DNA of 64,000 bases from a virus, in IMG/VR virus record IMGVR_UViG_3300019888_000001, positions 18,111 through 82,110 of that record; one strand, given 5' to 3'. The translations under genes were made by a program, and so were the position numbers. Below the pieces are notes generated by a model, which saw nothing but the letters and a program-made list of their open reading frames with translations, did no database searches and was not told where the DNA came from. Positions 8,032 to 64,000 of this stretch are shown piece by piece (positions within the stretch are counted from its first letter, which is position 1; each line of letters opens with the position of its first letter).

Positions 8032-8400
8032 GTGAAATCAAACCGAAAGCGCAAATCTTGGAAGGCCTCGTTGTTTATGGATTTGTATCCTGTCGCTATT
8101 CATATTAACGTCGTGGACAACACCGCAAACTGGACGGCTACACATAATTTTCCGGTTAATAACAACCGGGTAGCGTGTTGTGGCCGCGACGGTACAGGAA
8201 ATTTTATGCTGGTCTTCCAGCGTGATTATTTAACGCATAGAGTTATCGCGCATGAAATTTCACATTGCGTTTTTAGAATCGGCGAATATATAGGCATGCC
8301 ACATGAGAACGCGTCCGACGAAGCCTACGCGGCATTGCATGAACATTTGACATACTGGGTTTTATCCCAATGTAAGAAGCACGGCACCAAAATTTTCTAA
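8032..8400 (+). CDS. Small zincin-like (HExxH) protein
   Basis: IAHEISH motif with downstream EAYA. Confidence 0.6.
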   Translation: MKSNRKRKSWKASLFMDLYPVAIHINVVDNTANWTATHNFPVNNNRVACCGRDGTGNFMLVFQRDYLTHRVIAHEISHCVFRIGEYIGMPHENASDEAYAALHEHLTYWVLSQCKKHGTKIF

Positions 8401-8918: not shown

Positions 8919-10452
8919 ATTCTCCATTAGCATAGTCGCATTCAACAAGTTGGAGTACACGAAAAAGTGCATCGAATCCGTTATAGCGGGGGGCGGGGAT
9001 TTCGAAATCTTGCTTACCGACAATGCCTCAACAGATGGTTCCGGACAATGGATGGACGAGTTAACATCAAAAGATCCTCGCGTACATGTAGTCCATAACA
9101 CTACGAATCGTGGGTTCAAGGAACCACAGAACGACGCGTGCGCCCGAGCGAAGGGAAAATTTTTTGTCTGCTTAAACAACGACACCGAAGTACCAAAAGA
9201 CTGGTTAATGCTTCTGGAGCAACCTTTTATTGACTTCTCGGAGACCGCGACTATTTCGGGGCCATCAGGAACTTGTTGTGAATTTAAAGACAGTTTTCCT
9301 AGCTGGCATGGCCGAATTGGAAACAATGTTGAATACATCGAGGGTTCCTGTCTCTGTATTCCTACCGCCCTGGCTAAAAAATATACACTATTCGCTCCAC
9401 ATTTTAAATTTGCTTATGCCGAAGATGCAGATTTATCTCTACGAATGCGCGCGATGGGAAAAACGATTCACCAAGTTCCATTTCGCATAATGCATCATCG
9501 GGGGGCAACATCAAATGGAATGCCTGGAATGGCTGAAATTCAAATAGCCAACTCGGCAATAATGACTGAGCGGTGGGCCAATTACCATAAATTTCGACGT
9601 TTTGATTTACCGATAGTTATTCGACGAGACGAGGCGTTAGGAGACGTGTTATTAACTACTCCGCTTATTCGGGCTCTCCGAGAGCAAATGCCTCGATCCG
9701 AACTTTTTTTTGAAACAGCGCTGCCACATGTGCTTAAACACAACTTGAAAATTAAGAAACGAGAACCCTGGGGACGATGGGATGGTTCGACAGGAGACCA
9801 AAATTTATATCAATGGGCAAGAGTTATAAACTTAAACATGTCCTATGAAAACATGCTTCAAACGCATATTGTCGATGGTTACTTTAAAAAAGCACTAATC
9901 GTCCCTGTGGGGTCAGACTATCGGCATACTGAAAACTATTACACTGAAGCAGATATTGCCTTTGCGGAAACAAACTTGCCCGGAGAACAGTGGGTGGCGG
10001 TTCATCCCGGGCCGTCAACTTGGCAAGGTAAGGCTTGGCCAGAAGATAGATTTAGAAAGTTATGCGTCTGGCTCATGGATAATAAATGGAGAGTAGTGAT
10101 AGTCGGCCATCAAGGAGGCCCCGGCTATCCTAGCTATCATGATCTTAGAGGTCACACAAGTTTACAACAACTTGCTGCAGTCATGGCCCGCTGTAAATTT
10201 GCGGTATGCTTAGACTCGTTTCCTCTTCACGTAGCCGAAAGTGTGGGAACGCCAGTAATCGGATTATTCGGGGTAACAGACCCTCAATTCATCCTGACTA
10301 GAAAACCTTCGTATTCTATAATGGGAGTCGCGCCTTGCTCCGGTCAACGACATCGTGAAATTGGCAAAGTTCAAATGCCGTGCGATGGTGCTTGTATCGC
10401 TAGTATATCTCTAGACCAAGTTAAAGAAAAAGTATACGCCATCACAAAATGA
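8887..10452 (+). CDS. Glycosyltransferase, GT2 + GT9 (heptosyltransferase-like) fusion
   Basis: DNASTDGS, LNND and YAEDADLS (GT2); LGDVLLTTPLIRAL, KAWPEDRF, DSFPLHVA..GTPVIGLFG (GT9). Confidence 0.9.
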   Translation: MAKKEKLVAPRFSISIVAFNKLEYTKKCIESVIAGGGDFEILLTDNASTDGSGQWMDELTSKDPRVHVVHNTTNRGFKEPQNDACARAKGKFFVCLNNDTEVPKDWLMLLEQPFIDFSETATISGPSGTCCEFKDSFPSWHGRIGNNVEYIEGSCLCIPTALAKKYTLFAPHFKFAYAEDADLSLRMRAMGKTIHQVPFRIMHHRGATSNGMPGMAEIQIANSAIMTERWANYHKFRRFDLPIVIRRDEALGDVLLTTPLIRALREQMPRSELFFETALPHVLKHNLKIKKREPWGRWDGSTGDQNLYQWARVINLNMSYENMLQTHIVDGYFKKALIVPVGSDYRHTENYYTEADIAFAETNLPGEQWVAVHPGPSTWQGKAWPEDRFRKLCVWLMDNKWRVVIVGHQGGPGYPSYHDLRGHTSLQQLAAVMARCKFAVCLDSFPLHVAESVGTPVIGLFGVTDPQFILTRKPSYSIMGVAPCSGQRHREIGKVQMPCDGACIASISLDQVKEKVYAITK

Positions 10453-26050: not shown

Positions 26051-26152
26051 TGAACGATCCTGAACGATTTGAACGCATTTTTATAAACCCCCTTTACACC
26101 ACCACCCTACACACACTTTTAGATAAGCCCTAATATCGTTCAGGATCGTTCA
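26051..26152. repeat. Iteron-like direct and inverted repeats; candidate replication origin
   Basis: TGAACGATCCTGAACGAT (26051-26068) with its exact reverse complement at 26135-26152; extra TGAACG at 26070. Confidence 0.75.
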
Positions 26153-27454: not shown

Positions 27455-28288
27455 ATGAGAACATTAAAATATAGTCTTGCAGTGATTATTATTTCAGTTG
27501 CCGCCGTCATTGCCGGAGTTGGTTTGATAAGCATCTTTGTTATATGGCCCTTCGGTGTCGTTATCCTGCCCGTCGTGGGCTTCGGGTCAGCTTTGTTGTG
27601 GGCGATTCAGTATATAATTAATTACGACTCACGTTTATAAAAATGATTGGAACCTGGAAAATTGAGCCGCGATACTGGCCTGAACTGCTTGGGAAAGCCC
27701 CTGTCCCGGTAGAAACCGATCCGAAAACCGAAACCAAACCCCAGAAGCCTTTGTTCCATGGCCCATTATGGCAGACCACTAAGATGTGCCTTCAATGCCG
27801 AAAAGCCAAAGTTACAGGGAAAGCTAAATTCTGCGCACTCTGCACGAAAGCTCGCAACGCCCGGGCGGCTCGTAAATCGTATAAAAAGCTTAATCCTCAT
27901 AAGTTGGTCACAGGCCCCCTTCAGTATGAGGCACTTACAACTGACCAAAATTGAATCCGCTATGTTGACCCTCTAATATGAAGAATAGTATATGGAGCGG
28001 CATTCAGTAACCTCGACAGGGGGGTCGTCTCCTTGTGAACTGGATCCGATGTATCAAAAGATCCTGCAGTCGTTGAGGTTAGCTACGTTTGCTGACCAAG
28101 AACAATTTCCTAACGCGTATTTGGATAAGCTCGCACGAAACCTTCGAACCGATTTTCAGCACGAATTAGACGCCTGGAAAGCGTTGCTGAGCGCCGATAA
28201 TCAGGCCGGCGACACACCTGATCCTTATCCTGATCCTAATATTAAATACACCTTCCATGCTGATATTGGGCTCCTACCTAACGACTAA
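27455..28288 (+). CDS. Three small ORFs (27455-27640 membrane; 27643-27954 CxxC; 27992-28288)
   Basis: ATG-started ORFs following the promoter at 27416. Confidence 0.55.
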
Positions 28289-28289
28289 T

Positions 28290-29294
28290 ATGAACAAACT
28301 AATAACCATAATCCTAACATACCTGGCCATTTCAGTGCAAGCTTCACACGCACTCACAGTCCTCTGGCCTACAGGCGGCGGAGGTACCCATGTTGTAACC
28401 CTAAACATAGATGGCAACGGGCCTATTATTACTAGTCCTGTTCCAGGCTCGATTTTAACCTCGTCGACGGTTAACTTTTACTGGAAACCGAAAACCGGTA
28501 GTACATTTCCAGCTTATTATGCCGCGGTCGGCGTCCCGTCTAACCTTACGAAATATTTTCAGCAGTTGTTTATTAAAGACCCGTTTACGGTAAGCGGCCT
28601 TCCTACTACTTGTGGGCAAACAATTGTCGTCACAGTCTGCGGTGGTGATCCGGAGTGTACCCAATACACGTATCATACAAAGGCTTGCCCGACGCCAACA
28701 CCCACGCCAAAACCTACCCCAACTGCCACACCTACCCCAACTGCCACACCTACCCCAGCTCCGACAGCAACGCCAACTGCGACGCCCGCACCTACCCCAG
28801 CTCCGACAGCAACGCCAACTGCGACGCCCGCACCTACCCCCGCGACGAACTGCACGTTCACTCAAGGCTATTGGTCTACGCACGGCCCGGTCGACTGTAA
28901 TCCTTCGGACGGCACTGATTTGTGGCCAGTGAAGTCTCTCACATTTGGCACAGTAACTTACAGTGAGTCGCAGTTGTGTGCGATTATGAATACTCCAGTT
29001 ATGGGTAATGGATTGATTGATCTAGCTCACCAACTGATTGCTGCCGAGTTAAATATCGCGAACGGTGCAGACCCCTCCGTGATTAGCGCGACGATCAGTT
29101 TGGCAAACACGATGATCGGAAATCTTGTTATCGGTAGCGCTTCGTTACCCACGAGTCAGACATCGCCGCTGGTGGTCGCGCTTGATGCGTGGAACACCGG
29201 CACGGCTGGGCCTGGCCACTGCCCCACAATCGCCACCACCGAGCCGCTGATGTTCGACACCTGCCCTGTGGTCACACCTACACCAACACCGTGA
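28290..29294 (+). CDS. Secreted two-domain protein with Pro/Thr linker and TQGYW domain
   Basis: Signal peptide MNKLITIILTYLAISVQASHA, (PT/PA)n linker, CTFTQGYW...LAHQLIAAELN domain. Confidence 0.8.
   Translation: MNKLITIILTYLAISVQASHALTVLWPTGGGGTHVVTLNIDGNGPIITSPVPGSILTSSTVNFYWKPKTGSTFPAYYAAVGVPSNLTKYFQQLFIKDPFTVSGLPTTCGQTIVVTVCGGDPECTQYTYHTKACPTPTPTPKPTPTATPTPTATPTPAPTATPTATPAPTPAPTATPTATPAPTPATNCTFTQGYWSTHGPVDCNPSDGTDLWPVKSLTFGTVTYSESQLCAIMNTPVMGNGLIDLAHQLIAAELNIANGADPSVISATISLANTMIGNLVIGSASLPTSQTSPLVVALDAWNTGTAGPGHCPTIATTEPLMFDTCPVVTPTPTP
28690..28845 (+). repeat. Coding tandem repeats (18-bp and 42-bp units) for the PT linker
   Basis: cctaccccagctccgacagcaacgccaactgcgacgcccgca twice; cctaccccaactgccaca twice. 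Confidence 0.85.
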
Positions 29295-29355
29295 ATGAAA
29301 CCCTGCAACAAGACAACCTGCCTCCCGAACCACCGGTCGCTTATTTCGTGAAACA

Positions 29356-31497: not shown

Positions 31498-31869
31498 ATG
31501 GATGAAGTACAAAGAGTAACCGCAGGACCAGGTGCCGATCAACAGCGGCTTTTTCAAGTTTGTTCTAGCGGTGGGATTGACACTACGACTAGCGGCGCGC
31601 AAGCTATTCGAACTACTAATACTGGCCAAACTTTCTATATTACCGATATTTCTATTACTGCTGATTATGCAGGTAATGCCACAAAATTAATCCAACTTGA
31701 GATTTCTGGCGGGGTTATCGTGTTTGAAGCTTATGTAAGTACGACGGCGCCAATAGATATGCCAGGGCTTGAAACACAGATTCAAGTTCCAAGTAATAGT
31801 GTTCTCGCGATTAAGTGGGGCGCGCAGGCCGGGCACATTGCTTTCTTTATCTCAGGTTACGAAGATTAA
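31498..31869 (+). CDS. Beta-rich hypothetical protein, paralog of 12255-12683
   Basis: Shared TF.ITDI.IT and terminal F.I.G[FY]E motifs. Confidence 0.75.
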   Translation: MDEVQRVTAGPGADQQRLFQVCSSGGIDTTTSGAQAIRTTNTGQTFYITDISITADYAGNATKLIQLEISGGVIVFEAYVSTTAPIDMPGLETQIQVPSNSVLAIKWGAQAGHIAFFISGYED

Positions 31870-32159
31870 GGTTTTGTAGGTGTAGCGGCAGCTGCAGGAG
31901 TGTTAACCGAAGCGTTGAAATTTGGCGCTACGAGCGGTGGATACTGAATAGCCAGGCGATGTAACTCTCTTTCGAGTTTTGGTACATCTGCTTCCATTTT
32001 TGAAAAAGTTGCAAATAATGTATGAATTGATAGAAGCGCCCATGTGAGTAGGGTGCAAGCAAGACTTCCGAAAATTGTAGTAAGCACGCTGTTGACGTTT
32101 ATCTCCAAATCCCAGATCCTAAACAATCCGTGTTGAACTGCGTGTCGATGTCTAGGCAT
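31866..32159 (-). CDS. Membrane protein (one TM plus coiled coil)
   Basis: Coupled to the DUF3309-like gene. Confidence 0.6.
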   Translation of the reverse strand: MPRHRHAVQHGLFRIWDLEINVNSVLTTIFGSLACTLLTWALLSIHTLFATFSKMEADVPKLERELHRLAIQYPPLVAPNFNASVNTPAAAATPTKP

Positions 32160-32305
32160 TATAGCCTGCCTAACAAAAATAGAATTAGTATAATCACTAA
32201 AAGCAATCCTAGGATACCATGCGCGCCGTTACCAAATCCATATCCTCCTGTAGGAAAGGCCCCTACCAGTAATAGAATTATAAGAATGAGGAGAATGAGA
32301 CCCAT
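32159..32305 (-). CDS. DUF3309-like small membrane protein, second copy
   Basis: MGLILLILIILLLVGAFPTGGYGFGNGAHGILGLLLVIILILFLLGRL. Confidence 0.8.
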   Translation of the reverse strand: MGLILLILIILLLVGAFPTGGYGFGNGAHGILGLLLVIILILFLLGRL

Positions 32306-32400
32306 ATAAATAAAGGTCCGTCTTTTCAGAGTTTTGTCAATAAGTTCCTTCCCGCGGTCCTGGTTTCCCAAAATCGCGGAAGGATCTTTATCGTGAGCTG

Positions 32401-32703
32401 TTAGCTCGTTGTCGCGCCTGTAGGCCCGGTAGGCCCCGCGGGTAGCAACGCTGTTACGCTTTGAGTCGCGGCTTTTAAGTTCGCGAGTGCCGTATCGACC
32501 GCCGGGGTTGTTCCGCCGGCAGAGGCCAATGCAGCTTCGAGAGCTGTGACCCCAACACCAATTGCAGTTACTTGATCAGCCACTGCTTGAATGTCGAGAG
32601 CTTCTTGGGATTGCGTTTCCATAATGGTATGCTCCTGGGTTACGAGGCGTTCAAGAAGGTTTTCGATGGCCTTCAAGCGCGACTCTATGTTTCGTTTCGT
32701 CAT
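32401..32703 (-). CDS. Ala-rich coiled-coil protein with GPTGPTG tail
   Basis: 100-aa ATG ORF. Confidence 0.7.
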   Translation of the reverse strand: MTKRNIESRLKAIENLLERLVTQEHTIMETQSQEALDIQAVADQVTAIGVGVTALEAALASAGGTTPAVDTALANLKAATQSVTALLPAGPTGPTGATTS

Positions 32704-32804
32704 GTTCTAAGTTAATCGGGATCCGGCGTAAGCGCTAAGCTTTTATTTGTAAATAGTTTTTGTTAGACGTTTGACAATTCTTTCCTAACAAGACATTTTA
32801 GTTC

Positions 32805-32996
32805 ATGGCCGATCAGATTTCTCAACTTCGAGCAAAAGTCTCGCGAACGCTTGAAGCTAAGGTGATGGCCCGCGGTCGTTTGGTCCGAGCGGATCAAGAG
32901 TGGGCCCAAGCGGTTCGGGCGCTACAACGAGCGGAGCAGGCTGAAGCGCTGGCTCATGCTGAACGGACTCGGGTTTTGGTTCGGTCTGTGCTTTAA
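32805..32996 (+). CDS. Small helical protein
   Basis: TTGACA-N17-CATTTT-N5-ATG; overlaps the non-conserved tail of the HNH on the opposite strand. Confidence 0.55.
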   Translation: MADQISQLRAKVSRTLEAKVMARGRLVRADQEWAQAVRALQRAEQAEALAHAERTRVLVRSVL

Positions 32997-33429
32997 AAAA
33001 TTTTTCATGTTTGAGGCCAGTTGAAATATAGTATTCTTTATTTTCCGCTCGTTTTATCCAATTACAGTTTGAGCATAGACATTGAAAGTTGGCAGGGTTA
33101 TCGCGTACGTATCTATAGTATGCGTGGCGGCTTGGAAAGGTGGCGCGGTGTTTTCTACCTCCTCCATTTATGTGATCAATTTGAAGTGCACGAGTATCTA
33201 AAAAGCCGCATCGGGCACATTTATTGCCGAGAATGTTTAGAATTAGCACGCGCAAATTTTTGCGATAACGAGCGTCGTTTAGTCGGTGTTTTTCTGGATG
33301 CGCTTGGTTATAACGTTTATCGCAAGCTTTTTTCTTTGCTGTTTTGTTATATTTTTTGGTTCGGCGGATTTTTGAAGCGCGCCCGTTAGGAGTGCGGCTC
33401 CATATTTGATACTGGTTTCGGGTTTGCAT
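32857..33429 (-). CDS. HNH endonuclease
   Basis: LGNKCARCG...LQIDHINGGG...QCLCSNCN. Confidence 0.85.
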   Translation of the reverse strand: MQTRNQYQIWSRTPNGRASKIRRTKKYNKTAKKKACDKRYNQAHPEKHRLNDARYRKNLRVLILNILGNKCARCGFLDTRALQIDHINGGGRKHRATFPSRHAYYRYVRDNPANFQCLCSNCNWIKRAENKEYYISTGLKHEKFFKAQTEPKPESVQHEPALQPAPLVVAPEPLGPTLDPLGPNDRGPSP

Positions 33430-33782: not shown

Positions 33783-33870
33783 CAATTATGAGTCGCAGTG
33801 TTGCAATTTGTCCTGGATTCCATTGCACCGTTGTCTTGTTGCAGGGTTTCAGGGTTGCGACTCATAATTG
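33783..33870. repeat. Perfect 15-bp inverted repeat
   Basis: CAATTATGAGTCGCA (33783-33797) / TGCGACTCATAATTG (33856-33870). Confidence 0.92.
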
Positions 33871-33947
33871 AGATTGCTGAGGACTACCGTTTATCCAACA
33901 TCGAGGATAAAAAATAGTTACCTAAGAGAAATAGTGTTGATGAAGTG

Positions 33948-33964
33948 TTGGCACGAGCTTTGCT
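33948..33964 (+). promoter_or_regulatory. sigma54 (-24/-12) promoter
   Basis: TTGGCACGagctTTGCT matches TGGCACG-N4-TTGC; intergenic and facing the early operon. Confidence 0.75.
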
Positions 33965-33973
33965 AATGCCCTT

Positions 33974-34750
33974 GTTGCCTCGGATGAAATCCGGGCGACC
34001 AAAGCAGCGAAGCTACCTTAGGCAGTTTGATCGCAGTGCAGTAGCAGGTGCGATTGCCTATCGGAGTCTAAGTCGCAAGAGTAGCTGCCCACAGTCGCGC
34101 GAGTAGTAACTGAGGTCGCGGAGCAAAATCGTGGTGGCTTTGTCCAACACGCGGGCAAGCGGTGAAACGTTTGCGAGCGCAATCCTGCGCTTCTCTATTG
34201 TAGAGCAAGAGTCGAAGATACAATGCCGATTAACGGGCGCGCTTGCGTGCTTTACGGCTGAACATGACCTTGTAAAACTGCGATAAGAATCTACATGCGG
34301 CACGAAATGAGAGCGAGACCGCAAAAAGAACGTGCGAGGAAACTCAATATCTCGGCAAAGCTGGTAATGTCAGCAAACGCGAAAGCGGTCAAGTGACCGC
34401 TAAATCGTAGGGAAATTGGCGGCTAGTTGGACTGCAAACTATTAGAAAAGCCAGTCGAAACGAAACGTGGCGCACCTAAGGGCAATAAAAGGATTCGGCG
34501 CTAATTGCGCGGAGTCGAATAAGCTGTGAAGCTGCACAGTAACATCAAAACAAAGCGGCCACCCGGTAGGGATGGTGGATTTCTATTAGGCGTGACGCCT
34601 ATTAACTAAGCATCTCGCGCGGCCGCGATGGTCTGCGCTGAACTAGAGAAATCTGTTAGCGGGCGCACAAGGCGCGCCCGTTTGCACTCTCAATCTTACA
34701 CTTGCGCGCATGTGTGTGCGTTGCGAGGCAAAAACAAGTAAGGTTGAGAA
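33974..34750 (+). ncRNA. Candidate large structured RNA or leader (about 780 nt), family unknown
   Basis: No credible ORF; more than 15 consecutive helices, many needing G-U pairs on the plus strand, with purine-rich and GNRA loops. Confidence 0.65.
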
Positions 34751-34759
34751 AATCAAACT

Positions 34760-35209
34760 ATGGATAACCAATTAACAGTATTCGTGGAGCAAACGAACGC
34801 CCAGATTGCTATTTCCAAAGCTATCGGACTGCCTATCGAGGTAATCCGAAGCAATGGTTCTAAAGCAAACTTCAAGACGTTCGCAGACTCGCGCGGAGTA
34901 GTTATCGACAAAACGGATTCGGATTTTGACAAAGATGCCGCAAGGGCACTTCGCGCAGAATTTAATTCGTTAGTCGCGGAATATCACGCGAAAATTAAAC
35001 CAATCGCAGCGGGAATGCTCGCAGCGGACGGTTTCCGCGTGGCTTCATTGCAGCCTAAATACAACGCTAAATCGGGCGAGTATCAAGGCTGCAATATCGC
35101 AGTTCGACGTGAATTGAAGGGCGCGGCCCTTACACTTCGCGGCGAAAACGCGTTGCTCCGAAAGCAGCTTGCTGAACTGCAAGCCAAGCTATCAGCGTTA
35201 CCAGCCTAA
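34760..35209 (+). CDS. First early gene, hypothetical, with C-terminal coiled coil
   Basis: 149 aa, directly after the structured leader. Confidence 0.8.
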   Translation: MDNQLTVFVEQTNAQIAISKAIGLPIEVIRSNGSKANFKTFADSRGVVIDKTDSDFDKDAARALRAEFNSLVAEYHAKIKPIAAGMLAADGFRVASLQPKYNAKSGEYQGCNIAVRRELKGAALTLRGENALLRKQLAELQAKLSALPA

Positions 35210-35232
35210 CCAAAGCAGGCAATAGCCTACTT

Positions 35233-35279
35233 TGCGAAAAACTGCGCTCAATCTAGGTAGGTTGAGCGCAGACTTCGCA
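35233..35279 (+). promoter_or_regulatory. Intergenic long hairpin (processing or regulatory site)
   Basis: CTGCGCTCAATCT/AGGTTGAGCGCAG plus outer TGCGAA/TTCGCA; no U tract. Confidence 0.6.
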
Positions 35280-35285
35280 GATTTT

Positions 35286-35471
35286 ATGAGACATCACACG
35301 AAAAATGTCTCTCCGCGAAAAGAAAAACGGCATTTGCTTAATCAAATCGCAATTTGTCGAGCGTTAGCGGCGAGGCATCAAATGACACGATCAGAACGCT
35401 CTTGGATGAACGAGCGCCAACGTATCGTTTTTCAGATTAAGATTTTGAAAGGGCAACTAGCCCGAAGTTAA
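35286..35471 (+). CDS. Small basic hypothetical protein
   Basis: ATG just after the hairpin. Confidence 0.55.
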   Translation: MRHHTKNVSPRKEKRHLLNQIAICRALAARHQMTRSERSWMNERQRIVFQIKILKGQLARS

Positions 35472-35474
35472 TAG

Positions 35475-35725
35475 TCAGCGCATAGCCTGCGCTCGTTATG
35501 AACGGCGCGTAATACATATCCCGCCTGTGGTATGTTCAAGCGCGATTAACAGGCACAATTTTCATCGCCGAAACGGTTGGGTTAAAGTCCCACTCTACAG
35601 GCTTGGAAGATATCGAACACGACGCGAGAAATCTGTATTCGTGTGCTCCGGCAGCCCGATGATTATTTACACTACAACTGCGCTCGATCTGAGCGAATAG
35701 CCCGATAAAAACGCGCAGTCGGGCA
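35475..35725 (+). ncRNA. Second candidate structured RNA element
   Basis: ORF-free on the plus strand; stems AGCGCA/TGCGCT, ACATATC/GGTATGT, CACGA/TCGTG, GCCCGA/TCGGGC, ACTGCG/CGCAGT; contains the 24-mer complementary to 38421-38444. Confidence 0.5.
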
Positions 35726-35742
35726 CAATTTACGTTACATTT

Positions 35743-36066
35743 ATGCAAAAAAATAAGAGCGTTTACGTGATTCTGCTCAATTCAGCAGTCGCGGTGCACG
35801 CAAAACTGCGTAAACAGAATCCAAACCGCAATCCACAGAAACCTTGCGTTTATGTAGGAATTACGGGGCTTTCTGTCGAAGAAAGATTTGAGAATCATAA
35901 ACGCGGATATAAATCGTCGCGTTACGCTACGAAATATGCCGTCAGGCTGATGCCTGAATTATACGAGCATCTTAATCCATTGACTTACGACGAGGCGATG
36001 TGCGCAGAAATAACGTTAGCGGAAACCCTTCGTAATGAAGGATATACAGTGGCTGGTGGTCATTAA
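35743..36066 (+). CDS. Stand-alone GIY-YIG nuclease
   Basis: SVYVILL...VYVGITG...ERFENH...E. Confidence 0.85.
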   Translation: MQKNKSVYVILLNSAVAVHAKLRKQNPNRNPQKPCVYVGITGLSVEERFENHKRGYKSSRYATKYAVRLMPELYEHLNPLTYDEAMCAEITLAETLRNEGYTVAGGH

Positions 36067-36840
36067 TATGCAAATAGAAATCAGATCAATAAATGGACGT
36101 GTTATCAGAATCGAAGTAGCCAAAGATACTATTTCATCTGATGATTTGAAGAAACTGATGGATTGGAACAAACAAACTGAAAATCAAATATGACTGAAAC
36201 AGAGAAACAAAACAGCGTGAAACAGTGGGAACGGTTCGGGAACGAACCGGATTCCAAACGTCAAAAACGACTTGACATAATCGAAGCGTATAAAAACCGC
36301 TTCAAAACCGCAAACAGTCAACGCGGGAACTCCAAAAAGGCTAAATAAATGACAACTTACAACGCTACCTGCCAGTTACGTTACAAAACCTTACGCTGGT
36401 CAACTCACACTGTTTACCGCCTTCGTGCGAATACACCAAGCGAAGCATTAAAAATTGCCGATTTGAACGTTCGGCGAGATTTCGATAACCCAGATTTCCA
36501 GTTCAAAAATCTAACCGTAAAACCCGTAACATGTAACAAATAACCCTGATGCAGTGTTGCCAAACAGATTATTCAATGCAGCAGTGTGACGGCTCTGCTG
36601 CCTTGAGTAATTTATGAAAATAACATTAGAAGAATGTATCATGGTGGGCAATGCCGGGTGGGGAATACTCTTCCATTCATGGTTTTGCATGGTTGTTGCA
36701 GGAGTGATGGCGTTGCAGTTATCATACTACTCATTCAGGAAAAGGTTATGACTTTATGAGCAAAACTTCCATCTGGCTTATAGACATCGGCATAGCTATA
36801 TTTATCTGGCTTTTCGGATTCGCTATCGGCCATTACTTAA

Positions 36841-36911
36841 TATGAAATTATGAAATTATGAAATTATGAAATTATGAAATTATGAAATTATGAAATTATG
36901 AAATTATGAAA
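36841..36911 (+). repeat. Octamer TATGAAAT x8 plus partial copy
   Basis: Read directly; each unit spells ATG AAA TTA TGA. Confidence 0.95.
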
Positions 36912-37052
36912 AAACTAATACTGATAGCATTGCTAACCGCGCTTTCGGGCGTGATTGGATATCAAATCGGCATCGCAACCGCACCTACATATGACACAGT
37001 GCAGCTTGTGTTGCCGCCAACCCTACAACCACCATCACTCGAAAAATTATGA
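36906..37052 (+). CDS. Small membrane or secreted protein (48 aa)
   Basis: MKKLILIALLTALSGVIGYQIG...; starts at the last repeat unit. Confidence 0.6.
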   Translation: MKKLILIALLTALSGVIGYQIGIATAPTYDTVQLVLPPTLQPPSLEKL

Positions 37053-39354
37053 TTAAAACAGTTAAACACGCGGAATCGTATTTTCCACGTTTCATGTCGA
37101 AATGTTGTAGTGCGGAAACGCATACCGGGATTTGCATGGAGTGTGGAAATGCGGCAGTAATGCCGTTTTATTTTGTAGCTACTAAACCGATCCCTGATGC
37201 AATCGCGATTTGTCGCGAAAAACAATTACGCGCGCAACTGCCGGTCGGCGCGTCAATCGTTGGGTTAATCTCTTTATGAACACCAAAATCGAAATCAAAC
37301 TGAAAAACGGTAACACAGTTTATCTTGAAACAAACCGCGCGCCGATACCATCCCTTTGGCTCGGCGAACTAATGCTACAACTTACGAAACATGAAAAAGC
37401 AAAACAAAACTAAAATAGTAATGGCTGTAGCATGGCAACATGGCTGCAGGGTTACGCGGATAACAGATAAAAACCGGCAAACTATCAAGTTTCCGTCTTC
37501 AAAACAAGCTGCTGGTTACATCGGCCGGCTTAAAAACGTGATAATTAAACTCGGATGAAACAAAACGATTGCGAATTGGTTGACGGTAAAACCGGTGAAA
37601 CCGTGTTTCGAGGAAACTTTCCAGACTGCTGGAATCATCCTCAACGTAATGTTGATAGTAAAACTGGTGATTTAGGAGTTTTTTTGTTATCCCGTGAAGC
37701 TGCCAAGAAATATCGCGCAGCGTTGCAGGAAAAAGCGAAATTCCAAAAACAGCTAAAACAACATATAGAAAAAGAAATAGCGCGGGTCACGGCGAAGCCG
37801 CGCAAACGTAAGCAAAATGAAACCTATTAAAATCAGATTCGAGGACAAACCAGATTTAAGTTATGATCTTAGCGGCCAACCTGTTGAGATTGAACGAGTT
37901 ATCGAAGCTGCGCTTGACGGTGAGAATTTGATGAATGTCATTTTCTCGGTTAAAAACGACGGATTAACGTTGACAAAAACCACCAATTTATGCTAGAAGA
38001 TTAATATGAACAAAGAAGAAGAAGTGCAAAAACTACTGGCCGAAGGGATGTCGATTCAAGACATTGTGGATTATTACGAAAATACCCACGATTATGAAGG
38101 AATCGCCGCCGTTTCGGATTTGAACAACGACAACCACTCCGCAAGGATGGATTAATGACAATCGAATTTCGACGTAAACGAGGTAAACGCTTCCAAAAAG
38201 GAGTGCTTTATCTCCATATAGGTAAAATCTCAACCGGCGAATTGAAAACCTTATGCGACTCCGTGTTTAGTAAGAAAAGCCAAGCTCCTGAACACTGTAT
38301 GCCTTACCAAAAAGGTGAAGCATCTGATTATTAACAGTTGAAGTATGAAAACTAATAGGAACATGCTCCCTATAAATCTCTCGGACTTACCGAGGCCATA
38401 AGATATTTTTGCACAGGGACTCGCGCTTGAACATACCACAGGCGCCGGAGAACGAAACTCCATCCTATTTTAGAAGCCCGAAACCAACAACTGAAACAAC
38501 GAGGACTTCGACCATGAAGTCTTATCATGCATTACAACTCGGGCTGTTGTTTGCTATCTTCTCCAACCAACTGCCATACGCATTTGCGAAAGTAATCGGT
38601 GGTCTGTTAAGCCTAACTTATTGTGTGACCGCATGCATTTTAACATTCAAAGAAGAATGAAAAGTAAATACTACGACAATTATCCCGAAGTCAAACGTCA
38701 CATTTTGAATAAACCTGGACATACCGGAACTACAGGACACGATGGTTTCCGACTGCGGAAGAATGGCGAGGGAAGATGGGTGTTTGTTGAAGGGATTAAC
38801 CGACCAATTCCTATCGTTAATCGCCGCGATTCGGCTTGCATGAATAAATGTTTTAAGAAACGAGGATTATGAGACATAAAAAGACAAATTATGAGACACC
38901 AAACACCAAGTAAACGTGCCTGGCGGAGAATGACGAAAAGCATGTCGGTAGCAGGATTGGCGGTAATGCTGATCCAGTTATGGCATACAGCGTATCCATC
39001 CAAACCGTAGACTAATCCAAGCACGGATGAATATTATGAACACAAAACCTGAAAAATACGCACTATTCTTTTGGTATTGCCCGGAAATACCTCAAGCATC
39101 GTTGTTGGAGCAGATTATAGCTCGTCAAGGAAAAGATGCGGATATGGACAAGCCAATGGCTCGACCCGAATCGCCACCGAAAAAGCTAGTCTTTATCAAA
39201 ATGGTAGATTCGGCTGTTGAGTTAAGCTCTCTTATTTCGCGATCACCTACGTTAGATTACGTAATCATGCAAGGCAGCTTGCATGCAGTGAAGGCGTCTA
39301 CGTCGGTGTTCGTTGATGGTAAAAACCTGATGGAAGATCAAATAAACGGATAAT

Positions 39355-39777
39355 ATGGAAGACCCAATAAAACACCGCGATAAATTTATGAAGCACATTC
39401 TTCTAACAGGAGCCGCGCTTATGGTAGCCGGCTGCGCGGATATCCCAACTCATTCCACAAAAGCGCGCGTTACGTTTTACTCACGAGGCGAAGATAAATA
39501 CGGTTCGCGTATCGCCACTGGCGGACGTGCACGAGAAGGTCGCACAGTTGCAGCCTCGACTTTAGTTCCGTTTGGAACAGGAATCCAAATACCCGGCTTG
39601 GCCGGAATCGTTGGTAACGGAAGATTTGTCTGCGAAGATCGTGGTTCAGCAGTGAATCGGGAACGAGCAAGCAGAGGACAGGCGCCGGTGATTGATGTAT
39701 ATTGCGCGTCGCCTGCTAAACGACGACGGCTAGCTCGATCACTTCCTGAATATATGGAGATTAAATATGATAACTAA
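39355..39777 (+). CDS. 3D-domain (MltA-like) lipoprotein, putative peptidoglycan-acting enzyme
   Basis: Lipobox LMVAGC, VTFYS, TVAAS...PFGT, EDRG.A, IDVY. Confidence 0.8.
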   Translation: MEDPIKHRDKFMKHILLTGAALMVAGCADIPTHSTKARVTFYSRGEDKYGSRIATGGRAREGRTVAASTLVPFGTGIQIPGLAGIVGNGRFVCEDRGSAVNRERASRGQAPVIDVYCASPAKRRRLARSLPEYMEIKYDN

Positions 39778-40639
39778 GCCAATGTTAGCGGGCAAATGCA
39801 CAGATATTACTAAGCTGACGTTTCCTGTTTTAGCCACGCCTAAACTCGACGGCATCCGTTGTCTGATGATTAATGGGAAGGCCGTGAGCCGCAAATTCAA
39901 ACCAATTCCGAATAAGTTTATCCGAAGCACGCTTGAAATGACTTGCAGCTCAATGCAGCTCGACGGCGAGATAATGATCGAAGGCCGGTCGTTCAACGAT
40001 CTGTCTGGCGATGTTCGCCGTGAAGATGGACGACCAGATTTTTATTATGCTGTATTCGATTATGTTAAATACGCCAATTCAGACCCCTATCCGAAGCGGG
40101 CGCAACATTTACGAGAAGTAATTCTCCCTGCATGTTGTCGTAAGATTCTGCCAGTGCCGATTGACACTATAGAACAGTTGCAAGCGTATGAGCAAGAGCA
40201 AGTGGCTCTAGGCTACGAGGGAGTTATGGTTCGGTCGTTGCTTTCTCCTTATAAAGGCGGGCGCAGCACGGAGAACGAAGGCTATCTGCTAAAAATAAAA
40301 CGTTTCGAGGATGCCGAGGCCGTAGTCGTCGGATATCGCGAAATGATGCACAATGACAATGTCACTACAAAAGACGCTTTTGGGCGCAGCGAACGAAGCA
40401 GTCACAAAGAAAATCTACGTGGAGCCGGCGTGTTGGGAAACCTCGAGTGTAAAGCCAAGCCCTGGACGACAACATTCGAAATTGGCACCGGATTCGACGC
40501 TAAAACACGGTCTGACCTGTGGGCCAACCGAGATAAGCTTATAGGAAAATTGGTCAAGTTTCGACACCAACCAAGCGGAGCCGGCGCCCGGCCTCGGTTC
40601 CCTACGTTTATTGGCTTCCGTGACGAATGGGATTTATGA
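39767..40639 (+). CDS. lig: ATP-dependent DNA ligase
   Basis: PKLDGIR, LDGE, VFD, YEGVMVR, LLKIK, GTGF, PRFP. Confidence 0.95.
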   Translation: MITKPMLAGKCTDITKLTFPVLATPKLDGIRCLMINGKAVSRKFKPIPNKFIRSTLEMTCSSMQLDGEIMIEGRSFNDLSGDVRREDGRPDFYYAVFDYVKYANSDPYPKRAQHLREVILPACCRKILPVPIDTIEQLQAYEQEQVALGYEGVMVRSLLSPYKGGRSTENEGYLLKIKRFEDAEAVVVGYREMMHNDNVTTKDAFGRSERSSHKENLRGAGVLGNLECKAKPWTTTFEIGTGFDAKTRSDLWANRDKLIGKLVKFRHQPSGAGARPRFPTFIGFRDEWDL

Positions 40640-62881: not shown

Positions 62882-64000
62882 TGCCAAGCCAAGACCCTAT
62901 CTTCCAGACTTCCATTTTATTTCCTAATACTCAAGTTACAACTATTCAGGTTCCGAATCCGGGGCCGATTCAAACAATTCAAATCGTACAGGGACTTCCA
63001 GGCCCGGCTGGCCCGACCGGTCCAACCGGCGCTGGAGCGACAGGTGCGACCGGCTCAACAGGAGTTACAGGCCCAATTGGTCCTATTGGTCCAGCAGGAA
63101 CAGACGGTGAAGATGGGCAAGATGGTATAGCAGGGTCAGTAGGTCCTCCTGGTATCACTGGTCCTACGGGTCCTACTGGAGCTGGAGTGACAGGTGCTAC
63201 GGGTCCAACGGGGCCTTACAGTGGTATTACTCCATTTGTGCAATCAACATCGTTAGGTTCTTTGCGGAATAATTTTTCCGGCGATGTTGGCATGAAGATT
63301 ATCACTAACGTCGGCTTTATAGTAACCGCGTTAGGACGCTGGAACGTTTCAGGAAACACTGGCACACATACTGTTAAATTAAAATCAAGCACCGGCGTGG
63401 TGCTTGGCTCTGTTTCGATTGATACTACTCTTGGAACGCCGGGAACCTTTCAATACGCTAACCTTGCAACCCCTATAGTTTTGCTATCTGGAACGACATA
63501 CTTTGTTGAATCGACGGAATTAAGCGGCGGTGATCAGTTTTATGATTATATTGGCACTGTTTTGGTGACGACAGCAGTAGCATCAGTTCCATTCGCCTCG
63601 GTAAACGCGACCTCACTATTCGGCGGCACAAACAGCTGCTACGGTCCGTTGAGCTTCATTTATGTCGGAGTTGGCGCTACTGGCCCTACTGGCCACGACG
63701 GCGTGCCAGGAACAGACGGAGAAGACGGAACAGATGGTGCACCTGGTGTAGCAGGTGCGACTGGCCCTACTGGCCCTACAGGTGGAGTAGGTGCAACAGG
63801 TGGAGTAGGTGCAACAGGTGGAGTAGGTGCAACAGGCGCTGGAACTACAGGTGCGACAGGCCCAACAGGTGTAACTGGCCACGACGGCGTGCCAGGAACA
63901 GACGGAGAAGACGGAACAGATGGTGCACCTGGTGTAGCAGGTGCGACTGGCCCTACTGGCCCTACAGGTGGAGTAGGTGCAACAGGTGGAGTAGGTGCAA
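62881..64000 (+). CDS. Collagen-like fibre protein, truncated by window edge
   Basis: ATG 62881 open to the end; GPT/GAT/GVT triplets interrupted by a DUF4082-like beta domain; not in the ORF track. Confidence 0.88.
   Translation, partial: MPSQDPIFQTSILFPNTQVTTIQVPNPGPIQTIQIVQGLPGPAGPTGPTGAGATGATGSTGVTGPIGPIGPAGTDGEDGQDGIAGSVGPPGITGPTGPTGAGVTGATGPTGPYSGITPFVQSTSLGSLRNNFSGDVGMKIITNVGFIVTALGRWNVSGNTGTHTVKLKSSTGVVLGSVSIDTTLGTPGTFQYANLATPIVLLSGTTYFVESTELSGGDQFYDYIGTVLVTTAVASVPFASVNATSLFGGTNSCYGPLSFIYVGVGATGPTGHDGVPGTDGEDGTDGAPGVAGATGPTGPTGGVGATGGVGATGGVGATGAGTTGATGPTGVTGHDGVPGTDGEDGTDGAPGVAGATGPTGPTGGVGATGGVGA
63688..64000 (+). repeat. Exact coding duplication (period 186 bp) with internal 18-bp repeats
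   Basis: 63688-63814 recurs at 63874-64000. Confidence 0.9.

What the first reader, a model, noticed from the sequence alone, without database searches (positions are those of the whole stretch)
35522..38444. Perfect 24-nt complement linking a structured element to a site 2.9 kb downstream
Seen: 35522-35545 is the exact reverse complement of 38421-38444. A second, nested, imperfect pairing is possible between TTTTCA-TCGCC..CGGTTG (about 35559-35579) and CAACCG-GCGA-ATTGAAAA (about 38231-38248). The left arm can also fold locally (ACATATC/GGTATGT, exposing CGCCTG, which could pair with ACAGGC at 35549), so it looks switchable. It sits in an ORF-free element just upstream of the GIY-YIG nuclease gene. 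Untested alternatives: (a) a leader-trailer helix that loops out the small-gene block for RNase III processing, as in pre-rRNA; (b) an antisense or guide segment in an RNA scaffold, possibly used with the adjacent nuclease; (c) ends of an invertible segment, although no recombinase is in the window.
Basis: partly seen in the sequence, partly recalled or inferred. Interest (0 to 1): 0.72.

Follow-up and report, generated by a model that had tools for sequence, protein, structure and literature searches.

The report
Perfect long-range inverted repeats bracketing phage gene blocks
An uncultured soil phage carries an exact 24-base inverted repeat (and a second, 22-base one) bracketing blocks of tiny accessory genes; the two copies most likely pair within the phage's long RNA, but no relatives or RNA data were available to test this.

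Summary
The 24-nt perfect inverted repeat (35522-35545 / 38421-38444) is real and far beyond chance. It has only these two copies in the 82-kb phage record and none in the collections scanned. The arms lie in the two largest untranslated gaps of a co-directional early operon and bracket 13-14 tiny ORFan genes.

- The nested second pairing is at chance level.
- The "switchable" local hairpin and the "structured element" fold no better than shuffles.
- No Rfam family matches.
- The GIY-YIG assignment is below Pfam's threshold.
- No recombinase is found in the whole record.

New here: a second private perfect pair of 22 nt (29296-29317 / 33830-33851) brackets the neighbouring 4.6-kb block. None of 78 relatives' loci (1.04 Mb) has an inverted repeat of 20 nt or more.

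My best reading, at 0.4, is RNA-RNA pairing of the two gaps on the plus-strand polycistronic RNA, acting as a processing stalk or clamp. The main rival, at 0.3, is a recent DNA-level inverted copy with no pairing role.

The parts
35522..35545 (+). Left arm (B1) of the perfect 24-nt inverted repeat. It starts 50 nt after the stop of ORF 35232-35471 and ends 197 nt before ORF 35743-36066.
38421..38444 (+). Right arm (B2), the exact reverse complement of B1. It starts 86 nt after the stop of ORF 38155-38334 and ends 69 nt before the ATG at 38514.
35472..35742 (+). Left untranslated gap (271 nt) holding B1. It is not more structured than shuffles, and no promoter-like site of the sigma-70 type was found in it.
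38335..38513 (+). Right untranslated gap (179 nt) holding B2, with mild excess structure (z = -2.2).
35743..38334 (+). Bracketed block of 13-14 small plus-strand ORFs (29-107 aa), mostly abutting or overlapping. The first is the GIY-YIG-like 107-aa gene. The others tested have no family above threshold and no relative in 158 fetched loci.
29296..29317 (+). Arm A1 of a second, unrelated perfect 22-nt inverted repeat. It starts one base after the stop codon of ORF 28257-29294.
33830..33851 (+). Arm A2, the exact reverse complement of A1. It lies inside a strong ~90-nt palindrome (33783-33873, z about -5 on both strands), about 100 nt upstream of the sigma-54-type promoter motif and 400 nt from the start of the minus-strand HNH-like gene.
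33949..33964 (+). Context: TGGCACGAGCTTTGCT, the only full sigma-54 consensus match in the record. It lies upstream of the operon that holds B1 and B2.

Best explanation
The two arms are RNA-pairing partners on the plus-strand early RNA. The operon behind the sigma-54-type promoter is transcribed as a long polycistronic RNA. When the right gap emerges, its 24 nt pair with the 24 nt of the left gap into a perfect two-turn duplex. This loops out the 2.9-kb block of 13-14 accessory genes.

Such a duplex is at or just above the minimal length usually given for RNase III substrates (own knowledge). Its most likely effect is either to let the host enzyme cut the block out as a separate mRNA, or to clamp its ends together. 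Either way the block's stability and expression would be set apart from the flanking genes. A trans variant is included, in which a processed left-gap RNA acts as an antisense on the right gap, as c4 RNA does in phage P1.

Shown: the perfect complementarity, its statistical excess, its uniqueness in the record, its position in untranslated gaps of a co-directional array, and a second analogous pair next door. Inferred: co-transcription, duplex formation, cleavage and any regulatory effect.
For: - The 24/24 complement is far beyond chance.
- The arms sit in the two largest gaps of an otherwise tightly packed plus-strand gene array.
- The consensus scan finds no sigma-70-type promoter-like site in either gap, and the whole 6-kb region shows no excess of promoter- or terminator-like sites over shuffles (7 against 11.1; 10 against 7.7). 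This fits one long transcript.
- The duplex energy is -47.6 kcal/mol, against -13.6 for the competing local fold.
- A second private perfect pair of 22 nt (-38.2 kcal/mol) brackets the adjacent block.
- Two pairs of 20 nt or more occur in 82 kb here, against none in 78 relatives' loci totalling 1,037,947 nt. That argues against a common neutral process.
- The arms are not a dispersed motif: no third copy was found even at 1-3 mismatches on 12-16-nt sub-words.
- A distant relative that uses sigma-54 promoters (G032) has a perfect 21-bp hairpin in its leader, so perfect long stems do occur in RNA leaders of this group.
- Precedent in print: a 14-bp 5'/3'-UTR interaction controls cleavage of B. 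subtilis hbs mRNA (PMC5737220, abstract read).
- Earlier notes of this scan, unchecked by me, report 20-34-bp stems enclosing single phage early genes, with covariation.
Against: - No relative shares the region, so there is no covariation test.
- Both pairs are 100% Watson-Crick, with no G-U pair and with razor-sharp ends. That looks more like DNA copying than an evolved RNA helix.
- Pair A brackets two convergent gene sets (plus strand up to 31869, minus strand 31866-33429), and A2 lies upstream of the sigma-54 promoter. A single transcript carrying both A arms therefore needs read-through antisense transcription.
- Predicted local accessibility of B1, B2 and A2 is unremarkable (18th-43rd percentile); only A1 is open, at the 89th.
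- The arms' own hairpins are not above shuffles.
- The phage encodes no RNase III of its own.
Confidence: 0.4

Rival explanations
1. Recent DNA-level inverted copy with no pairing role. A 22-24-nt patch was copied from the opposite strand a few kb away, by template switching during replication or break repair, or by a short gene-conversion tract. It persists because it fell in non-coding DNA.
For: - Both pairs are perfect, with no G-U pairs, abrupt borders and no flanking similarity.
- All four arms are in non-coding DNA, where such patches are tolerated.
- Short direct repeats sit at the borders of the distal arms: TGAA/TGAA at A1, and CACAGG before and at the end of B2 (read). I noticed these after the fact and did not test them against chance.
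- Nuclease-like genes, which could cause breaks, lie beside A2 and B1 (sub-threshold).
- The structure and accessibility statistics are unremarkable.
Against: - Two such events within 9 kb of one 82-kb genome contrast with none of 20 nt or more in 1.04 Mb of relatives' loci and one (L122, 29 nt, arms 200 nt apart) in 0.44 Mb of unrelated soil contigs.
- The copying distances of 2.9 and 4.5 kb are long for template switching (own knowledge).
- Both pairs bracket whole gene blocks at gap positions rather than falling at random.
Confidence: 0.3
2. Substrate for inversion of the 2.9-kb block by general homologous recombination. The population would then hold both orientations, as a switch or as a tolerated polymorphism.
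For: - An exact 24-bp inverted repeat flanks a discrete block.
- The phage carries a recombination-type nuclease (DUF2800 / PD-(D/E)XK).
- The layout resembles the Mu G or P1 C segments (own knowledge).
Against: - No Resolvase or Phage_integrase match was found in the whole record, while the controls ring in 13 and 14 of 14 genomes.
- The 24-mer has no half-site dyad.
- All block genes point the same way as their neighbours, so inversion would only silence them.
- 22-24 bp is marginal for homologous recombination (own knowledge).
Confidence: 0.1
3. Two copies of a DNA site for a sequence-specific protein (an operator, enhancer or looping site). The sites would act independently or by looping, with no nucleic-acid pairing between them.
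For: - A2 lies where a sigma-54 enhancer would be expected, about 100 nt upstream of the promoter motif.
- Sites in either orientation are normal for DNA-binding proteins.
- B2 has a weak internal dyad, GCGCTTG-N9-CAGGCGC.
Against: - Protein sites rarely need 22-24 identical non-palindromic base pairs.
- There is no third copy or degenerate family in the genome.
- The internal dyad is not above shuffles.
- No regulator was identified in the block.
Confidence: 0.08
4. Terminal inverted repeats of a mobile cassette headed by a nuclease-like gene. The GIY-YIG-like gene heads block B, and an HNH-like gene is the first gene inside arm A2 in block A.
For: In both brackets, reading from one arm inward, the first gene after 200-400 nt of non-coding DNA is nuclease-like.
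Against: - There is no target-site duplication.
- No transposase family was found.
- Each pair is single-copy in the record, and neither sequence occurs in IMG/VR or in GTDB genomes.
- Relatives of the GIY-like gene sit in unrelated contexts without such arms. Of 80 loci, only L087 has an inverted repeat of 16 nt or more with an arm within 350 nt upstream of the gene.
- The nuclease calls are below Pfam's cut-offs.
Confidence: 0.04

Closest known systems
RNase III processing stalks of bacterial rrn operons (leader-trailer helices around 16S and 23S rRNA); own knowledge
   Same: Two segments kilobases apart on one transcript pair into a duplex of about two turns or more, looping out what lies between them. 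The 23S stalk spans about 2.9 kb, as here.
   Different: Here the loop holds 13-14 protein-coding genes. The helix is perfect and only 24 bp. No cleavage, conservation or covariation has been shown.
5'/3'-UTR long-range interaction of B. subtilis hbs mRNA (Braun, Durand, Condon 2017, PMC5737220; abstract read)
   Same: Untranslated sequences before and after coding sequence pair with each other and modulate ribonuclease action.
   Different: The hbs case is a 14-bp pairing around one gene at true mRNA ends. Here it is 24 bp around a multi-gene block inside a longer operon.
RNase III sites of the phage T7 early region (R0.3 to R1.3); own knowledge
   Same: A polycistronic early phage RNA is cut in intergenic gaps into separate stable messages.
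   Different: The T7 sites are local hairpins with internal loops, not partners 2.9 kb apart.
c4 antisense RNA of phages P1/P7 (Rfam RF01695; role in ant control mentioned in PMC8201110, passages read; mechanism from own knowledge)
   Same: An RNA segment encoded upstream in an operon pairs with a site further downstream on the same operon's RNA.
   Different: There is no Rfam match here. As I recall, c4 uses two short complementarities that cover a ribosome-binding site a few hundred nt away. Here one 24-nt stretch lies 69 nt upstream of the next start codon.
Invertible segments Mu G / P1 C / Salmonella hin (own knowledge)
   Same: A block of about 1-4 kb is flanked by inverted repeats of roughly 26-34 bp.
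   Different: Those need an adjacent serine invertase and dyad-symmetric crossover sites. Neither is present here.
PeSL cassettes of T4-type phages (PMC2839356, PMC4122927; search listing and abstract starts only)
   Same: Short repeated intergenic sequences flank small ORFan genes in plastic early regions.
   Different: As I recall them, PeSLs are multi-copy direct repeats made of a promoter plus a stem-loop. Here there are two inverted copies and no promoter-like site. Direct repeats of that sort do flank the ligase gene in relatives.

Membership tests
Long-range RNA processing stalk / mRNA end clamp | Two complementary segments of about 20 bp or more on the same strand | tested here: met
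   24/24 and 22/22 Watson-Crick pairs; duplex energies -47.6 and -38.2 kcal/mol
Long-range RNA processing stalk / mRNA end clamp | Both segments lie in untranslated parts of one transcript | tested here: inconclusive
   Pair B: both arms are in gaps of a co-directional array with no promoter-like site in the gaps, but transcription has not been observed. Pair A spans convergent genes.
Long-range RNA processing stalk / mRNA end clamp | Pairing kept by compensating changes in relatives | not testable with these tools
Long-range RNA processing stalk / mRNA end clamp | RNA ends or RNase III cleavage at the duplex | not testable with these tools
   No RNA run holds the stretch
Site-specific invertible segment (Gin/Cin/Hin type) | Recombinase gene in the genome | tested here: not met
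   PF00239 and PF00589 give 0 matches at E up to 0.1 in the 82,110-nt record, while the controls ring in 13/14 and 14/14 genomes
Site-specific invertible segment (Gin/Cin/Hin type) | Both orientations present in the population | not testable with these tools
C4 antisense RNA (RF01695) | Match to the Rfam covariance model | tested here: not met
   No match at the gathering score in the window, and none at E up to 10 in 35000-39000
Transposon / MITE with terminal inverted repeats | Target-site duplication, a transposase, and more than one copy | tested here: not met
   The flanks differ. No transposase family was found. Each pair is single-copy in the record, and the sequences are absent from IMG/VR and GTDB scans.
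GIY-YIG nuclease (Pfam PF01541), for the adjacent 107-aa gene | Score at or above Pfam's gathering cut-off | tested here: not met
   19.1 bits against a 22.6-bit cut-off, E = 0.0017. No PDB sequence match at E up to 1, and no PHROG or NCBIfam match. The alignment of 16 members shows VYV...VYVG.TG...R..NH...E, which looks GIY-YIG-like (the motif reading is from my own knowledge).
PeSL-type regulatory cassette | Multi-copy direct repeats holding a promoter plus a stem-loop | tested here: not met
   Two copies, inverted, and no promoter-like site in either gap

The most novel reading that the evidence does not exclude
The phage marks whole accessory-gene modules with private, perfectly complementary 22-24-nt 'bracket' sequences. 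One pair brackets the 2.9-kb GIY-YIG-like block, and another brackets the 4.6-kb block that holds the tRNA and the HNH-like gene. On long read-through transcripts each bracket closes into a two-turn duplex. The module is thereby looped out and excised or insulated at the RNA level. This would extend the rRNA-stalk principle to multi-gene mRNA cassettes, each with a nuclease-like gene next to one arm.
Probability: 0.3. Interest if true: 0.7.

Novelty: new variant of a known kind. Interest (0 to 1): 0.45.

Why it matters
If the arms do pair as RNA, phages can delimit multi-gene accessory modules at the transcript level with a minimal two-turn duplex. That would be a simple way to give horizontally acquired gene blocks their own processing and stability without their own promoters and terminators. 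It would also give a sequence signature (private perfect inverted repeats in the gaps that flank ORFan blocks) for finding module boundaries in uncultured phage genomes.

If the arms are instead scars of inverted templated copying, two such scars next to nuclease-like genes would be a rare visible trace of break repair in a phage. Either outcome can be tested with modest experiments.

Tried and rejected
SEARCHES FOR RELATIVES, ALL EMPTY FOR THIS REGION.
- Megablast and blastn of 35200-38700 against 50,697 phage records found no match.
- The exact 24-mer and 22-mer gave 0 hits in IMG/VR. A 22-nt core of the 24-mer and the 22-mer gave 0 hits in GTDB genome contigs. The own record may be left out of these scans.
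- The search for related loci in IMG/VR found no relative with the GIY-like protein (9 candidate stretches), the 149-aa protein (155 stretches) or the 91-aa protein (38 stretches).
- The ligase gave 78 loci. The best, L003, is 63% identical, but it shares only the ligase with this region. DNA 33900-39000 matched 0 of 5 relatives' records.
- tblastn of 30 window proteins against 158 loci hit only with the ligase, plus two weak single matches.
- The one metagenome scan went to the GIY-like protein. It returned 80 loci that share no DNA outside that gene. In hindsight this was a poor use of the single scan.
- The closest cultured phages have a DNA polymerase no more than 26% identical.

SEQUENCING RUNS. 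Five runs in 3 studies hold the stretch or part of it, and 2 of them may be the source sample.

IDEAS REJECTED.
- Dispersed promoter or operator motif: no third copy.
- Sigma-54 promoter inside the arm: the GG-to-GC spacing is off by one either way (my reading).
- Sigma-70 promoter in the arm: no acceptable -10 element follows in both copies (my reading).
- Kissing hairpins: the arms' own hairpins are not above shuffles.
- Replication-origin link: the cumulative GC skew follows gene direction, with its minimum at 8167, not at the arms.
- Compositional island: the block has ~41-42% GC against ~48-50% on its left, but the low GC runs past B2 to about 39200.
- Family-wide feature: inverted repeats of 17 nt or more occur in only 2 of 78 relatives' loci, and there they lie inside long mechanical ORFs.
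- Association of the GIY-like gene with inverted repeats elsewhere: 5 of 80 loci have an inverted repeat of 16 nt or more, and only 3 of these have an arm within 350 nt of the gene. In L122 and L151 a tRNA-3'-end-like sequence follows the gene, which suggests island ends; ARAGORN, run on L122 but not L151, calls no tRNA there.
- Phage-encoded RNase III: none.

The first literature search gave nothing relevant.
Full report
WHAT THE WINDOW IS. The window is bases 18111-82110 of an 82,110-nt IMG/VR virus record from soil, which CheckV rates as 100% complete. It carries:
- a plus-strand replication module: helicase, DUF2800/PD-(D/E)XK nuclease, family-A DNA polymerase and D5-type primase;
- a short convergent minus-strand gene set at 31866-33429;
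- a repeat-rich divergent control region;
- a full sigma-54 consensus, TGGCACGAGCTTTGCT, at 33949-33964, the only such match in the record;
- an ~0.8-kb leader;
- a long plus-strand array of tiny genes running into an ATP-dependent DNA ligase at 39767-40639.

No cultured phage is close; the DNA polymerase is at most 26% identical to any.

THE OBSERVATION. 35522-35545 is the exact reverse complement of 38421-38444.
- With up to three mismatches allowed these are the only two matches in the window, and none of 100 shuffles gave two.
- They are the only copies in the whole record.
- Sub-words of 12-16 nt with 1-3 mismatches find no degenerate third copy, so this is not a dispersed promoter or operator motif.
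- Identity stops abruptly on all four sides, and the flanks, aligned in the common orientation, are unrelated.
- The arms lie in the two largest untranslated gaps of the operon (35472-35742 and 38335-38513). They bracket 13-14 small, mostly abutting plus-strand ORFs.

- The nested imperfect pairing (35559-79 with 38231-48) is weaker than what shuffled queries find in the same block: -19.7 against a mean best of -21.8 kcal/mol, and 169 of 200 shuffles reach it.
- The local ACATATC/GGTATGT hairpin is predicted but ordinary (z = -0.11; 88 of 200 shuffles fold as well).
- The left gap as a whole is no more structured than shuffles (z = -0.35). The right gap is mildly structured (z = -2.2).
- Rfam has no match.
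- The 'GIY-YIG nuclease' scores below Pfam's cut-off (19.1 against 22.6 bits).
- That protein belongs to a very conserved ~100-aa family, with mean column identity 79% over 16 members. The family is abundant in soil metagenomes: 446 of 597 candidate stretches are relatives. The 80 loci kept are 59-70% identical to it and share nothing else with this region.
- That makes a dedicated RNA partner for this protein unlikely.

A SECOND PAIR. An exhaustive exact-repeat scan of the record found one more long-range perfect inverted repeat, unrelated in sequence: 22 nt at 29296-29317 and 33830-33851.
- A1 starts one base after the stop codon of the 345-aa gene.
- A2 lies inside a strong ~90-nt palindrome (z about -5 on both strands), about 100 nt upstream of the sigma-54 motif.
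- By my arithmetic the expected numbers for 82 kb are about 2e-4 for 22 nt and 1e-5 for 24 nt.
- Background: 78 loci around the ligase of relatives (1,037,947 nt) contain only three exact inverted repeats of 17 nt or more with arms over 100 nt apart, in 2 loci, and none of 20 nt or more. By contrast, 48 of the 78 loci have direct repeats of 17 nt or more. The three inverted repeats lie inside long mechanical ORFs.
- So two private brackets of 22 nt or more within 9 kb are a peculiarity of this phage.
- The layout repeats. Reading inward from B1, the first gene after 197 nt is the GIY-YIG-like gene. Reading inward from A2, the first gene after 400 nt is an HNH-like gene (Pfam E = 0.0023, below cut-off). 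I could not tell whether this is more than the tendency of such genes to sit beside large gaps.

WHAT IT IS NOT.
- Site-specific inversion: the whole record has no Resolvase or Phage_integrase match, while the controls ring, and the 24-mer has no half-site symmetry. One caveat applies. The record's 'direct terminal repeat' falls in an internally repetitive gene: the first 127 nt recur 80 nt before the end, and only 21 nt are truly terminal. Closure of the circle is therefore not certain.
- Transposon ends: there is no target duplication, no transposase and no other copy anywhere scanned.
- PeSL-type cassette: the copies are inverted, there are only two, and no promoter-like site lies in the gaps.
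- Assembly artefact: two runs of the probable source sample hold all sampled words, and two runs of another sample hold 46-60%. I could not check that the latter cover the arms.

BEST EXPLANATION (0.4). RNA-RNA pairing of the two gaps on the plus-strand polycistronic RNA. The duplex (-47.6 kcal/mol) would displace the local folds and loop out the block. At two helical turns it is at the minimal RNase III substrate length (own knowledge). It would therefore serve as a processing stalk, or as a clamp that joins the block's ends.
- Shown: the complementarity, its excess over chance, its uniqueness in the record, and its position in the gaps.
- Inferred: everything about RNA.
- Support by analogy: rrn stalks and T7 early sites (own knowledge), and the hbs 5'/3'-UTR pairing (PMC5737220, abstract).
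- A distant sigma-54-using relative (G032) has a perfect 21-bp leader hairpin whose sequence recurs in the divergent leader.
- Two earlier notes of this scan, which I did not verify, report covarying 20-34-bp stems around single phage early genes.

AGAINST IT.
- Both helices are perfect, free of G-U pairs and sharply bounded, which is what DNA copying would produce.
- Pair A spans convergent genes and ends upstream of the promoter, so a single RNA carrying both A arms needs read-through antisense transcription. That is possible, because the convergent genes overlap by their stops and leave no room for a terminator, but it is unproven.
- Accessibility and hairpin statistics are unremarkable.

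RIVALS. The main rival (0.3) is a recent inverted templated copy with no pairing role. Smaller rivals are inversion by general recombination (0.1), protein-binding DNA sites (0.08) and mobile-cassette ends (0.04).

- No relative shares the region in any collection I could reach.
- Supplementary files were not consulted.
- Covariation, inversion junctions and expression are therefore all untested, and the verdict rests on the anatomy of a single genome.

VERDICT. This is a real, non-random and unusual pair of bracket repeats. The most likely function is at the RNA level, as a new variant of known long-range stalks and clamps, but it is unproven. Interest is moderate.

Noticed in passing
window 26051-26068 / 26135-26152: An 18-nt perfect inverted repeat (TGAACGATCCTGAACGAT) with 66 nt between the arms, in the gap between the primase-like gene and the next gene. 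It may be a terminator, an origin or a processing hairpin.
   Followed up: no
window 35242-35694: Four of the six copies of CTGCGCTC in the record (2.5 expected) cluster within 450 nt. Each forms one strand of a GCGC-rich hairpin in the gaps of the early operon, including a 14-bp stem at 35242-35271.
   Followed up: partly
window 36841-36912: An 8-nt unit, ATGAAATT, repeated about eight times in tandem between two small membrane-protein-like ORFs inside the bracketed block. This stretch is also what the read laying filter tripped on.
   Followed up: no
window 35743-36066; loci L081-L160: The GIY-YIG-like 107-aa protein belongs to a very conserved ~100-aa family that is abundant in soil metagenomes (446 of 597 candidate stretches; the best 80 are 59-70% identical). 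In L122 and L151 the gene is followed at once by a tRNA-3'-end-like sequence; ARAGORN, run on L122 (L151 was not scanned), calls no tRNA there. This suggests it sits at the end of integrated elements.
   Followed up: partly
G037:C1:15311-15432 (loci L162, L164-L167), minus strand: Five tandem full sigma-54 consensus motifs spaced 26-27 nt apart in a 30.8-kb relative (ligase 43% identical).
   Followed up: no
G032:C1:2061-2761 (L168): A divergent pair of sigma-54 consensus motifs (2181-2196 minus, 2626-2641 plus). The plus-strand leader holds a perfect 21-bp hairpin (2674-2694 / 2741-2761), and the same 21-mer recurs in the leftward leader (2061-2081).
   Followed up: partly
loci L003-L080 around the ligase gene: In 48 of 78 relatives' loci, direct repeats of 17-79 nt recur. 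In many of these loci they lie just upstream and downstream of the ligase gene (for example L055 7890-7968 / 9513-9591). These look like repeated promoter/leader cassettes of the PeSL kind.
   Followed up: no
record ends (window 63794-64000 and the 127 nt at the record's start): The record's 'direct terminal repeat' lies in an 18-nt-periodic repetitive gene. The first 127 nt recur 80 nt before the end, and only 21 nt are truly terminal, so the circular closure or DTR call is doubtful.
   Followed up: no
window 32857-33429 (minus) and 33830-33851: Each of the two bracketed blocks has a nuclease-like gene (HNH-like; GIY-YIG-like) as the first gene inside one arm, transcribed inward. Both Pfam scores are below the cut-off. 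Coincidence or a link to break repair or mobility is not resolved.
   Followed up: partly
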